Below are positions 2,336-40,314 of a DNA stretch of 64,000 bases, piece by piece; position 1 is the first letter of the stretch, and every line of letters starts with the position of its first letter. The DNA is taken from assembly GCF_009914755.1 (NCBI RefSeq), contig NC_060946.1, one strand, 5' to 3'. The DNA is from the human T2T-CHM13v2.0 reference genome, Homo sapiens. The position numbers were made by a program, and so were the translations under genes. The notes under the pieces are model-generated. The model had not been told where the DNA came from. It made no database searches and saw nothing but the letters and a program-made list of their open reading frames with translations.

Positions 2336-2489
2336 GTTTTCATAATTATTCTGTTTTCACATGCTATCTTTATTCCAATGATCTCAAAGTACCTACCCAA
2401 GCACAGTTCTAACTCTAGTATATGTAAGCAAACGTGCAAGTCTGTCACCTTCCACACAAAGAGTCCCCCCACCCCCGCCAAACACACCA

Positions 2490-3944
2490 CTCCCTCTCCC
2501 TCTCCTTCTCCCTCTCCCTCTCTCCTTCTCCCGCTTTCCACGGTCTCCCTCTGTTGCCGAAGCTGGACCGTACCGCCGTGATCTCCGCTCGCTGCAACCT
2601 TCCTGCCTGTTTCTCCTGCCTCAGCCTGCCGAGTGCCTGGGATTGCAGGCGCGCGCCGCCACGCCTGACTGGTTTTTGTATTTTTTGGAGACGGGGTTTC
2701 GCCATGTTGGATCGGCTGGTCTCCAGCTCCTAACCGCGAGTGATCTGCCTGCCTCGGCTTCCCGAGGTGCCGGGATTGCAGACGGAGTCTCGCTCACTCA
2801 GTGCTCAATGTTGCCCAGGCTGGAGTGCAGTGGCGTGATCTTGGCTCGCTACAACCTCCACCTCCCAGCCACCTGCCTTGGCCTCCTAAAGTGCCGAGAT
2901 TGCAGCCTCTGCCTGGCTGCCACCCCGTCTGGGAAGTGAGGAGCGTCTCTGCCTGGCCGCCCATTGTCTGGGATGTGAAGAGCCCCTCTGCCTGGCCGCC
3001 CAGTCTGGGAAGTGAGGAGCGTCTCTGCCCAGCCGCCCATCGTCTGGGATGTGGGGAGCGCCTCTGCCCCGCCGCCCCGTCTGGGATGTGAGGAGCGCCT
3101 CTACCCGGCCGCGACCCCGTCTGGGAACTGAGGAGCGTCTCTGCCCGGCCGCCACCCCATCTGGGAGGTGAGGAGCGTCTCTGCCCAGCCGCCCCGTCTG
3201 AGAAGTAAGGAGCCCCTCCGCCCGGCAGCCGCCCCGTCTGGGAAGTGAGGAGCGTCTCCGCCCGGCAGCCAGCCCGTCTGGGAGGTGGGGGGCAGCCCCC
3301 GCCCGGCCAGCCGCCCCGTCCAGGAGGTGGGGGGCACCCCCCGCCCGGCAGCTGCCCCGTCGGTGGGGGGCGCCTCCGCCTGGCCGCCCCGTCTGGGAAG
3401 TGAGGAGCCCCTCTGCCGGGCCGCCACCCCGTCTGGGAGGTGTGCCCGGCAGCTCATTGAGAGCGGGCCATGATGACAATGGCGGTTTTGTCGAATAGAG
3501 GGGGGAAATGTGGGGAGAGGAGAGAGATCAGATTGTTACTGTGTCTGTGTGGAGGGAGGTGGACATGGGAGACTCCATTTTGTTCTGTACTGGGAAAAAT
3601 TCTTCCGCCTTGGGATGCTGTTGATCTATGACCTTACCCCCCAACCCCGTGCTCTCTGAAACATGTGCTGTGTCCACTCAGGGTTAAATGGATTAAGGGC
3701 AGTACAAGATGTGCTTTGTTAAACAGATGCTTGAAGGCAGCATGCTAGTTAAGAGTCATCACCACTCCCTAATCTCAAGTACCCAGGGACACGAACACTG
3801 AGGAAGGCCGCAGGGTCCTCCTCTGCCTAGGAAAACCAGAGACCTTTGTTCACATGTTTATCTACTGACCTTCCCTCCACTATTGTCCTATGACCCTGCC
3901 AAATCCCCCTCTCCGAGAAACACCCAAGAATGATCAATAAATAC

Positions 3945-3973
<29 letters not shown>
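2490..3973 (+). mobile_element. Full-length SVA retrotransposon, older subfamily (SVA_A/B-like), antisense to MAPK1 in intron 1
   Basis: (CCCTCT)n head from 2490, antisense Alu-like region about 2540-2910, GC-rich VNTR about 2920-3440, HERV-K-derived SINE-R about 3440-3945, AATAAA at 3936-3941, poly(A) 3946-3973. Confidence 0.96.
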
Positions 3974-3975
<2 letters not shown>

Positions 3976-4487
3976 AATATTTTCACGTGCAAATGAAAAA
4001 GCCCTAAACAAATCTTAAAATATATAAAGTGGTTCAAAAAATGTTTATTGTTATTATTTTAATAGAGGCCTATACATGGAGCATTTATTTGGGAAAGTTT
4101 TAAATGAATGTTTTCCCCTGTTTTGGTTGTTATCAATCTACACTTTACCAATTTTCAATAATGATCATGCCTAATTAATTCAAATTAAAAGGTGTGTAAT
4201 ACAAAAAAAAAAAAAACTGCAACCAACCCTCGAATCAGCTCAATCTCTCACTGAATTATGGTTATCTGTCACCACTGTATCTGCCTATCAGTGATTAGGG
4301 AGAGCTCTCTCTGGAGAAAAATGTCACCTAGAGCATCAACAATTTTCATACACAGTATCCAGCATTCACTTGAACGTTACCAAGCATACAAGGAAACAGA
4401 AACGAGAAAAAAGAGACAACATATCCACATATCCACAGTGACCCAGTTACTAGTTACTGAAGATGATCTTTAAAATAGCTGTAATTC

Positions 4488-4848
4488 GGCCGGGCGCAGT
4501 GGCTCACGCCTGTAATCCCAGCACTTTGGGAGGCCGAGGCTGAGGTCAGGAGTTCGAGACCAGCCTAGCCAACATGGTGAAATCCCGTCTCTAAAAATAC
4601 AAAAATTAGCTGGGCGTGGTGGGGCGTGCCTGTAATCCCAGCTACTTGGGAGGCTGAGGCAGGAGAATCACTTGAACCTAGGAAGCAGAGGTTGCAGTGA
4701 GCCTAGGGTGTGGTGGGGCGTGCCTGTAATCCCAGCTACTTGGGAGGCTGAGGCAGGAGAATCACTTGAACCTAGGAAGCAGAGATTGCACCATTGCACT
4801 CCAGCCTGGGCGACAAATTGCGACTGTATCCAAAAAAAAAAAAAAAAA
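4488..4848 (+). mobile_element. AluS element with an internal 94-bp tandem duplication of the right arm
   Basis: The right-arm segment starts at 4612 and again at 4706 with shared private variants (GGGGCGTGCC, AACCTAGGAAGCAGAG). Confidence 0.88.
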
Positions 4849-38299: not shown

Positions 38300-38461
38300 T
38301 TTTTTTTGAGGCAGAGTCTCACTCTGTTGCCCAAGCTGGAGTGCAGTGGCATGATCATGGCTCACTTCAGCCTTGACCTCCTAAGCTCAAGGGATTCTCT
38401 CACCTCAGCCTCCCTAGTAGCTAGGACTATAGGCATGTAACACCATGTCCAGCTAATTTTT
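38300..38461 (-). mobile_element. AluJ-type host element, right arm, split by the composite SVA insertion
   Basis: Antisense Alu from the T-tract to CAGCTAATTTTT. It resumes at 41505. Confidence 0.88.
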
Positions 38462-40314
38462 TTTTTTTTTTATTGATCATTCTTGGGTGTTTCTCGCAGA
38501 GGGGGATTTGGCAGGGTCACAGGACAATAGTGGAGGGAAGGTCAGCAGATAAACAAGTGAACAAAGGTCTCTGGTTTTCCTAGGCAGAGGACCCCGCGGC
38601 CTTCCGCAGTGTTTGTGTCCCTGGGTACTTGAGATTAGGGAGTGGTGATGACTCTTAACGAGCATGCTGCTTTCAAGCGTCTGTTTAACAAAGCACATCT
38701 TGCACCGCCCTTAATCCATTTAACCCTGAGTGGACTCAGCACATGTTTCAGAGAGCACAGGGTTGGGGGTAAGGTCACAGATCAACAGGATCCCAAGGCA
38801 GAAGAATTTTTCTTAGTACAGAACAAAATGAAAAGTCTCCCATGTCTACCTCTTTCTACACAGACATGGCAACCATCCGATTTCTCAATCTTTTCCCCAC
38901 CTTTCCCCCCTTTCTATTCCACAAAACTGCCATTGTCATCATGGCCCGTTCTCAATGGGCTGTTGGGTACACCTCTCAGACGGGGTGGTGGCCAGGCAGA
39001 GGGGCTCCTCACTTCCCAGTAGGGGCGGCCGGGCAGAGGCGCCCCTCACCTCCCGGACGGGGCGGCTGGCCGGGCGGGGGGCTGACCCCCCCACCTCCCT
39101 CCCGGACGGGGCGGCTGGCCGGGCGGGGGGCTGACCCCCCCACCTCCCTCCCGGACGGGGCGGCTGGCCGGGCAGAGGGGCTCCTCACTTCCCAGTAGGG
39201 GCGGCCGGGCAGAGGCGCCCCTCACCTCCCGGACGGGGCGGCTGGCCGGGTGGGGGGCTGACCCCCTCCCTCCCTCCCGGACGGGGCGGCTGGCCAGGCG
39301 GGGGGCTGACCCCCCCACCTCCCTCCCGGATGGGGCAGCTGGCCAGGCAGAGGGGCTCCTCACTTCCCAGTAGGGGCGGCCGGGCAGAGGCGCCCCTCAC
39401 CTCCCGGATGGGGCGGCTGGCCAGGCGGGGGGCTGACCCCCCCACCTCCCTCCCGGACGGGGTGGCTGCCGGGCGGAGATGCTCCTCACTTCCCAGACGG
39501 GGTGGCTGCCGGGCGGAGGGGCTCCTCACTTCTCAGACGGGGCGGCTGCTGGGCGGAGGGGCTCCTCACTTCTCAGACAGGGCGGTTGCCAGGCAGAGGG
39601 TCTCCTCACTTCTCAGACCGGGCGGCCGGGCAGAGACGCTCCTCACATCCTGGACGGGGCGACAGGGCAGAGGCGCTCCCCACATCTCAGACGATGGACG
39701 GCCGGGCAGAGACGCTCCTCACTTCCTAGATGAGATGGCGGCCGGGAAGAGGCACTCCTCACTTCCTAGATGGGATGGTGGCTGGGCAGAGACGCTCCTC
39801 ACTTTCCAGACTGGGCAGCCAGGCAGAGGGGCTCCTCATATCCCAGACGATGGGCGGCCAGGCAGAGACGCTCCTCACTTCCCAGACGGGGTGGCGGCCG
39901 GGCAGAGGCTGCAATCTCGGCACTTTGGGAGGCCAAGGCAGGCTGCTGGGAGGTGGATGTTGTAGCGAGCCGAGATCACGCCACTGCACTCCAGCCTGGG
40001 CACCATTGAGCACTGAGTGAACGAGACTCCGTCTGCAATCCCGGCACCTCGGGAGGCCGAGGCTGGCGGATCACTCGCGGTTAAGAGCTGGAGACCAGCC
40101 CGGCCAACACAGCGAAACCCCGTCTCCACCCAAAAAATACGAAAACCAGTCAGGCCTGGCGGCGCGCGCCTGCAATCGCAGGCACTCGGTAGGCTGAGGC
40201 AGGAGAATCAGGCAGGGAGGTTGCAGTGAGTCGAGATGGCAGCAGTACAGTCCAGCTTCGGCTCGGCATCAGAGGGAGACCGTGGAAAGAGGGGAGAGGG
40301 AGAGGGAGAGGGAG
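38462..40314 (-). mobile_element. Full-length SVA retrotransposon (SVA_D-like), 3' part of a composite insertion
   Basis: Read on minus: CCCTCT hexamers about 40289-40314, Alu-like region about 39905-40285, long VNTR about 38975-39900, SINE-R about 38472-38972 ending AATGATCAATAAA directly into poly(A). Confidence 0.96.

What the first reader, a model, noticed from the sequence alone, without database searches (positions are those of the whole stretch)
3440..3600. Clustered sense-strand A>G changes in the intronic SVA: likely ADAR editing frozen into the genome
Seen by comparing with the second SVA in this window. GTGTGCCCGGCAGCTCATTGAGAGCGGG vs GTGTACCCAACAGCCCATTGAGAACGGG gives G at 3444, 3448, 3449, 3463. 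TGTGGAGGGAGGTGGAC vs TGTAGAAAGAGGTAGAC gives G at 3551, 3554, 3555, 3561. TACTGGGAAAAA vs TACTAAGAAAAA gives G at 3592, 3593. That is at least 10 A>G changes in about 150 bp. The changed As follow T, A or C, while As preceded by G are spared. Established: the HERV-K LTR5 ancestor has A at the LTR-derived sites, ADAR disfavours a 5' G and favours UAG, and inosine is copied as G. Inference: the SVA RNA (or a parent's RNA) was hyper-edited before reverse transcription.
Basis: partly seen in the sequence, partly recalled or inferred. Interest (0 to 1): 0.75.

Follow-up and report, generated by a model that had tools for sequence, protein, structure and literature searches.

The report
RNA editing frozen into SVA retrotransposons
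This human SVA jumping-gene copy carries 17 A-to-G changes in 190 bases in the sequence contexts that the RNA-editing enzyme ADAR prefers, and the same stretch is changed in many other SVA copies, so edits made on SVA RNA were likely copied into inherited DNA again and again.

Summary
Confirmed, and larger than reported. In the MAPK1-intronic SVA, 17 of 60 adenosines in 3420-3635 read G, against 1 of 57 T>C and 1 of 83 A>G downstream. None of 22 G-preceded adenosines changed. HERV-K proviruses have A, so the direction is A>G. Ten Gs are shared with two sister copies (clade 99/95 on parts outside the window), six are private: likely an edited source copy plus a second round. The window is a family-wide hotspot: independent changes per site rank 5' T>A>C>G and 3' G>C>A>T, the order published for human ADAR1, and stop sharply near 3632. 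Genome-wide, 282 copies gain G at five favoured sites against 29 at five G-preceded sites. Some Gs are fixed in a 964-copy lineage. No fold-back was found, so the double-stranded partner is unknown. Reviews cite 20% of SVAs as G-to-A edited by APOBEC3; these may be the same clusters read backwards. I could not read that primary paper and found no ADAR account in ten searches.

The parts
2490..3973 (+). Full-length SVA, antisense to MAPK1, in a MAPK1 intron; older type (A/B-like; label recalled, not tested against consensus sequences)
   Evidence: Sequence; 92-96% identity of its Alu-like and 3' SINE-R parts to other copies; annotation given with the finding
2490..2535 (+). CCCTCT-type hexamer head
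2536..2905 (+). Alu-like domain; no A>G excess (1 A>G among 20 differences from the majority)
2906..3439 (+). VNTR; no clear A>G excess in this copy or in the last 150 bases of heavily edited copies
3440..3945 (+). SINE-R: HERV-K env end and purine tract (3440-3508), LTR-derived part from 3509, AATAAA at 3936-3941
3444..3630 (+). Edited window: G for A at 3444, 3448, 3449, 3463, 3500, 3517, 3519, 3551, 3554, 3555, 3558, 3561, 3567, 3592, 3593, 3623, 3630. Ten shared with both sister copies (3444, 3463, 3500, 3519, 3551, 3554, 3555, 3558, 3561, 3567), 3517 with one, six with neither
3632..3640 (-). Splice-donor-like motif on the antisense strand at the 3' edge of the edited window; function untested, noticed after the fact
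   Evidence: Only GTRAG on either strand of the 541-base SINE-R of copy L035; edge position
3946..3973 (+). Poly(A) tail
38457..40313 (-).

Best explanation
The first 190 bases of this SVA's SINE-R carry a sense-strand A>G cluster that was likely made by ADAR on SVA RNA and then likely fixed in germline DNA when the L1 reverse transcriptase read inosine as G. Shown: the excess, strand, direction, neighbour order, sharp window, recurrence across copies and sharing with two sister copies. Inferred: two rounds, about ten edits in a source copy that stayed mobile and six or seven more in the RNA that made this insertion; the enzyme; the RNA stage. Inferred and weakest: the substrate was a duplex of about 200 bp with an antisense RNA supplied in trans, since no fold-back exists. 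The 5' edge is where likeness to HERV-K ends and the 3' edge sits on an antisense splice-donor-like motif, so an antisense HERV-K or SVA transcript or intron is my best guess for the partner (about 35%).
For: 17/60 A>G against 1/57 T>C and 1/83 downstream; 0/22 after G. HERV-K has A at the first 15 sites. On a 56-copy tree built from outside the window, changes per A site: 5' T 5.55, A 3.32, C 2.0, G 0.62; 3' (sites not after G) G 6.18, C 4.17, A 2.73, T 1.67, matching hADAR1 5' U>A>C>G, 3' G>C~A>U (PMC3113232, passages). Rate 3.8 changes per favoured site, like CpG decay (3.8-6.3) and 11 times the downstream 0.33. Per-copy counts come in bursts: mean 2.0, variance 8.9 in the 23 copies picked by the Alu-like part, other changes mean 4.8, variance 2.7. 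Clade of query, L002 and L010 99/95 sharing ten Gs. Genome-wide 282 against 29 against 83 extra matches. The excess is on the SVA sense strand, which here is the MAPK1 template strand.
Against: No duplex found: local folds of two nearly unedited copies have z from -1.4 to +2.2; whole-element folds of four copies give only helices of 4-10 bp here; 1 of 76 loci has a long inverted match nearby, and that copy is unedited. No RNA data. ADAR1 was reported to restrict L1 without editing, and no edits were seen in L1 reporter RNA (PMC5224506, passages). 25 of 53 inner branches of the tree are poorly supported, which inflates change counts. 29 loci were fetched by likeness to the edited stretch and are biased toward G; the rank held for 5' G and 3' G in the other 47, though 5' C (0.043) passed A (0.030) there. 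Pattern counts mix SVA with HERV-K LTRs and do not remove shared descent.
Confidence: 0.85

Rival explanations
1. The Gs are ordinary subfamily-diagnostic alleles, or were patched in by gene conversion or template switching from another SVA lineage.
For: Ten Gs are shared with sister copies and five with the second SVA; 75 of the first 100 matches listed carry G at 3567 (hand count).
Against: No other copy is closer than 91% over the edited stretch among 40 scored of 2928 candidates; only 5 places match its core haplotype within one mismatch. G alleles recur in many combinations (3500: 14 carriers, 10 changes). Conversion would not explain why the donor alleles are A>G and avoid 5' G.
Confidence: 0.04
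2. G is ancestral and the other copies were hit by APOBEC3 G>A editing of the cDNA, as published for 20% of SVAs.
For: PMC3874205 and PMC4982230 (passages) cite Carmi et al. 2011 for this. Read backwards, 11 of the 17 sites look like GG>AG and 3 like GA>AA, the APOBEC3G and 3F motifs (motifs in PMC4866542).
Against: Four proviral stretches and one LTR have A; A is the majority state in SVAs at all 17 sites; the strongest signal is the 5' base; non-CpG G>A in the window is 0.62 changes per site against 0.40 downstream.
Confidence: 0.02
3. ADAR or another deaminase acted on the sense DNA strand after insertion, in a hybrid with antisense RNA, or on RNA within an R-loop.
For: Would give the same neighbour order and needs no RNA duplex. 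ADAR activity on RNA:DNA hybrids is recalled from the literature, not read here.
Against: Strand follows the element, not the host gene, across copies of both orientations (963 extra-tolerant matches split 928/988 by strand shows both orientations are sampled); bursts of up to 24 A>G in one copy (L095) would need many fixed germline DNA events; sister copies share edits.
Confidence: 0.05
4. Context-dependent misreading by L1 reverse transcriptase, or another adenosine modification, produced A>G in this purine-rich stretch.
For: The window is purine-rich and lies at a fixed distance from the poly(A) tail.
Against: A>C and A>T are not raised (0.12 and 0.08 changes per site); both neighbour orders match ADAR1; 1 change at 9 favoured sites just past 3632 against 32 at 11 sites just before; most copies have none or one while a few have more than ten.
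Confidence: 0.04

Closest known systems
ADAR hyper-editing (ultra-editing) of human RNA, mostly inverted Alus (PMC3197674, passages; PMC3113232, passages)
   Same: Dense one-strand A>G clusters, G depleted upstream and enriched downstream; same rank order of neighbours.
   Different: Here the changes are in genomic DNA and inherited, in SVA SINE-R, with no fold-back partner found.
APOBEC3 DNA editing of retrotransposons (Carmi et al. 2011, not held, known through PMC3874205, PMC4982230 and PMC9706992; PMC4866542 for LTR elements)
   Same: Bursts of one transition type fixed in a retroelement at insertion; SVA named as the most affected human non-LTR family (20.1%).
   Different: Direction is A>G by outgroup, the motif is ADAR's, the substrate would be RNA. 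PMC4866542 calls the ancestral state crucial for direction and treats LTR elements only.
ADAR1 restriction of LINE-1 (PMC5224506, passages)
   Same: ADAR1 meets retrotransposon RNPs.
   Different: That effect is editing-independent and no L1 edits were found; edited SVA copies here inserted and, by inference, went on to seed copies.

Membership tests
ADAR A-to-I hyper-editing | Clustered A>G on the transcript strand without matching T>C | tested here: met
   17/60 against 1/57; 3.82 against about 0.5 changes per site
ADAR A-to-I hyper-editing | 5' neighbour U>A>C>G | tested here: met
   (rho 0.55, 58 sites); C and A swap in the 47-copy subset; genome-wide 282 against 29
ADAR A-to-I hyper-editing | 3' neighbour G favoured, U least | tested here: met
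   (rho 0.47, 37 sites)
ADAR A-to-I hyper-editing | A is the ancestral (templated) base | tested here: met
   4 proviral stretches and 1 LTR; 3630 varies in HERV-K; four sites forced by the pattern
ADAR A-to-I hyper-editing | Double-stranded RNA substrate | tested here: inconclusive
   No fold-back or nearby inverted partner; a partner in trans could not be tested
ADAR A-to-I hyper-editing | Inosine in the RNA, lost without ADAR | not testable with these tools
   No RNA or knockout data
APOBEC3 DNA editing | G ancestral, A derived on the sense strand | tested here: not met
SVA retrotransposon | Hexamer, Alu-like, VNTR, SINE-R, poly(A) in order | tested here: met
SVA retrotransposon | Target site duplication | tested here: inconclusive
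   Only an off-position 8-mer found
SVA subfamily A-F | Diagnostic positions of a named consensus | not testable with these tools
   No consensus library; labels are recalled

The most novel reading that the evidence does not exclude
ADAR is a major mutagen of the SVA family. A fixed 200-base window of SVA RNA has been edited throughout hominid history, at favoured sites as often as CpG decay; edited copies stayed mobile, so several subfamily-defining bases are frozen inosines; and the '20% of SVAs edited by APOBEC3' are largely these clusters read in the wrong direction. The window's edges mark a specific antisense RNA present in the germline or early embryo.
Probability: 0.5. Interest if true: 0.85.

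Novelty: new variant of a known kind. Interest (0 to 1): 0.7.

Why it matters
It would be a genomic record of RNA editing passing into inherited DNA through retrotransposition. A 2016 review says a role of ADAR editing in Alu subfamily evolution had not been determined (PMC4982230); SVA gives a testable case with thousands of copies. It would reopen the standard citation for APOBEC3 editing of non-LTR elements, warn that SINE-R 5' sites are homoplastic and mislead SVA trees and age estimates, show that SVA RNA is double-stranded in the cells where insertions arise, and show that editing does not stop SVA from moving. For this locus itself no effect on MAPK1 is suggested.

Tried and rejected
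Local stem-loop as substrate: no window below z -1.4. Long-range pairing inside the element: only short helices; hexamer with purine tract in 1 of 4 folds. Inverted partner within about 1.5 kb: 5 of 76 loci gave a hit, four of 13-16 bases; the one long hit (L070, inverted LTR) flanks an unedited copy. The second SVA lies outside MAPK1, 35 kb away, so it is not a likely partner. Editing in the VNTR: composition p 0.10, last 150 bases no signal, further upstream mixed signals (5' A/T up p 0.013, 5' G down p 0.011; GGAGG fraction rho 0.31, p 0.02), none in the query: inconclusive. Editing in the Alu-like part: 7 in 13 edited against 6 in 23 unedited copies, with T>C raised alike. CpG reversion: 1 of 17 sites follows C. 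Shared flanks (transduction) with fetched loci: only Alu ends seen in the top 20 rows. Carmi 2011 is not held. Levy 2017 on SVA networks has no hit for editing, ADAR or APOBEC in its main text. No whole-family alignment could be made, so genome-wide numbers are pattern counts; the 964-copy group has no G-preceded control. Earlier scan findings were not available.

Full report
What is there. Window 2490-3973 is a full-length SVA on the + strand (hexamer, Alu-like domain, VNTR, SINE-R, poly(A)), in a MAPK1 intron and antisense to it. A second SVA lies at about 38457-40313 on the - strand. Their pairwise alignment gives 19 A>G among 45 mismatches over 568 columns of the 3' part, and 3 among 33 over 402 columns of the 5' part.

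Test against many copies. Three searches of the genome, with the edited stretch, the downstream SINE-R and the Alu-like part, gave 90 loci. After dropping the 3 self loci, duplicates and copies under 85% coverage, and adding the second SVA, 77 SINE-R and 58 Alu-like copies remained; L009, a twin of L008, was then dropped. The query differs from the majority base at 26 SINE-R sites, 18 of them A>G, and at 20 Alu-like sites, 1 of them A>G. In 3420-3635, 17 of 60 A sites are G, against 1 of 57 T>C there and 1 of 83 A>G downstream. By 5' neighbour: T 7/11, A 9/19, C 1/8, G 0/22. By 3' neighbour: G 8/17, A 6/19, C 3/10, T 0/14. Only 1 of 17 makes a CpG with its 5' base. The window was set after seeing the data.

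Direction. A pattern for the longer env end found 82 places. Four that continue upstream into non-VNTR sequence ending in a splice acceptor, taken as HERV-K proviruses, have A at the first 15 of the 17 sites; 3623 is A in 3 with one gap, 3630 is A in 2 and G in 2. Four of the 15 were forced by the pattern. An LTR beside locus L070 has A at all 12 sites it covers. So A is ancestral; 3630 is the least secure site.

Two rounds. A tree of 56 copies built only from the Alu-like part and 3640-3939 joins the query with L010 (chr1:160.07 Mb) and L002 (chr17:16.05 Mb) at 99/95. All three have G at ten sites; 3517 is shared with L002 only; six are in neither sister; L002 has further Gs at 3426 and 3523 and L010 at 3565. 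The simplest reading is an edited source copy that stayed mobile, with each daughter RNA edited again. This is inference.

A family-wide window. Across the 76 copies A>G per site is 4-8% in each 50-base bin from 3405 to 3654 and 0.1-0.9% after it. On the tree, A>G at sites not preceded by G changes 3.82 times per site in the window, against 0.59 after G, about 0.5 for T>C, 0.33 downstream, and 3.8-6.3 for CpG decay. The same Gs recur in different combinations, though 25 of 53 inner branches are weak and inflate such counts for all classes. Changes per site rank 5' T 5.55, A 3.32, C 2.0, G 0.62, and 3' G 6.18, C 4.17, A 2.73, T 1.67; Eggington et al. give 5' U>A>C>G and 3' G>C~A>U for human ADAR1 (PMC3113232, passages). 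Counts per copy are bursty; L095 on chr20 has 24 A>G, some of them lineage-level. The 3' edge is sharp: 32 changes at 11 favoured sites in 3590-3632, 1 at 9 sites in 3633-3700. Bias: 29 loci were fetched by likeness to the edited stretch; in the other 47 the 5' rates are T 0.093, C 0.043, A 0.030, G 0.010.

Genome-wide counts. A 33-base motif over 3541-3573, allowing either base at the two lineage-level sites, matches 1634 places. Allowing G at five more A sites preceded by T, A or C gives 1916, at five G-preceded A sites 1663, and C at seven T sites 1717: 56, 6 and 12 extra per site. These counts include HERV-K LTRs and do not remove shared descent. A group defined by the second SVA's alleles, which include G at 3530 and 3538 where 4 of 4 proviruses have A, has 831 matches, and 964 when four favoured sites may be G: 133 of 964 carry further Gs. 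So lineage-defining bases include derived A>G at favoured sites, and editing likely went on in that lineage. I recall this group as SVA_D-F but did not test it, and it has no G-preceded control.

Mechanism. ADAR turns A into inosine in double-stranded RNA and reverse transcriptase reads it as G (established); SVA is copied by L1 proteins (PMC3418512, passages). The pattern follows the SVA sense strand, as expected for an RNA-stage event. The gap is the duplex: no local structure, no long helix in four whole-element folds, no nearby inverted partner for edited copies. The VNTR next to the window and the Alu-like part show no clear signal. The 5' edge falls where likeness to HERV-K ends, and the 3' edge falls on the only GTRAG motif on either strand of one copy's SINE-R, on the antisense strand (about 4% by chance, noticed afterwards). 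An antisense RNA of HERV-K or SVA origin pairing in trans would explain both edges; this is a guess.

What is known. Two papers cite Carmi et al. 2011 for G-to-A hypermutation by APOBEC3 in about 20% of SVAs (PMC3874205; PMC4982230; passages). The primary paper is not held, so I cannot say where its clusters lie, how it set the direction, or whether it or its supplement considered ADAR. Read backwards, 11 of the query's 17 sites look like GG>AG, so ADAR's 3' G preference would mimic APOBEC3G. PMC4866542 (passages) stresses the need for the ancestral state, covers LTR elements and has no mention of ADAR. PMC5224506 (passages) found no editing of L1 reporter RNA. PMC4982230 says ADAR's role in Alu subfamily evolution was undetermined. 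Also checked by term search only, with nothing on this point: PMC9706992, PMC7760323, PMC13648404, PMC5640379, PMC2873906, PMC5974252; PMC3197674 gave the ultra-editing motif. Ten full-text searches, read as listings, showed no paper on ADAR edits fixed in genomic SVA copies. The library lacks most subscription papers, including later reviews by the same group, and no supplements were read, so novelty is not assured.

Verdict. The single locus is one strong example; the interest lies in the family-wide window and the possible reversal of a cited APOBEC3 result. New variant of a known kind; interest 0.7.

Noticed in passing
L095 (G000:C20:35428130-35428380): SVA copy with 24 A>G in about 235 bases of the same window, more than the query; some are lineage-level.
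   Followed up: partly
L008 and L009 (G000:C15:19441080 and 18111928): Two copies with the same 19 A>G in opposite orientation on chr15, probably a segmental duplication of one heavily edited insertion.
   Followed up: partly
L070, about 1 kb upstream of its SVA: An inverted HERV-K LTR lies next to an SVA on chr8 (about 143.97 Mb); that SVA shows no window edits.
   Followed up: partly
G000:C1:144881815 (+) and 144883199 (-): Two SINE-R or LTR motif matches face each other tail to tail 1.4 kb apart, a possible inverted pair able to form double-stranded RNA.
   Followed up: no
window 2420-2490 and 3974-4000: No canonical target site duplication was found for this SVA; only an 8-mer at 2432 and 3985, off the expected positions.
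   Followed up: partly
window 3495-3525 and 3432-3454, - strand: The antisense strand has a long pyrimidine tract followed by AG sites near 3454 and 3434; with the donor-like motif at 3637 this could frame an antisense intron of about 200 bases matching the edited window, though nearer AG sites exist at 3550 and 3544.
   Followed up: partly
L091-L094, positions matching window 3628 and 3630: HERV-K proviruses themselves vary A/G at two of the SVA hotspot sites (G in 2 of 4 at each).
   Followed up: no
window 4640-4790: The Alu after the SVA appears to hold an internal duplication of about 75 bases in its right arm (seen in the sequence).
   Followed up: no
L002 5' end: The sister copy has a repeated hexamer and Alu-like start at its 5' end.
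   Followed up: no
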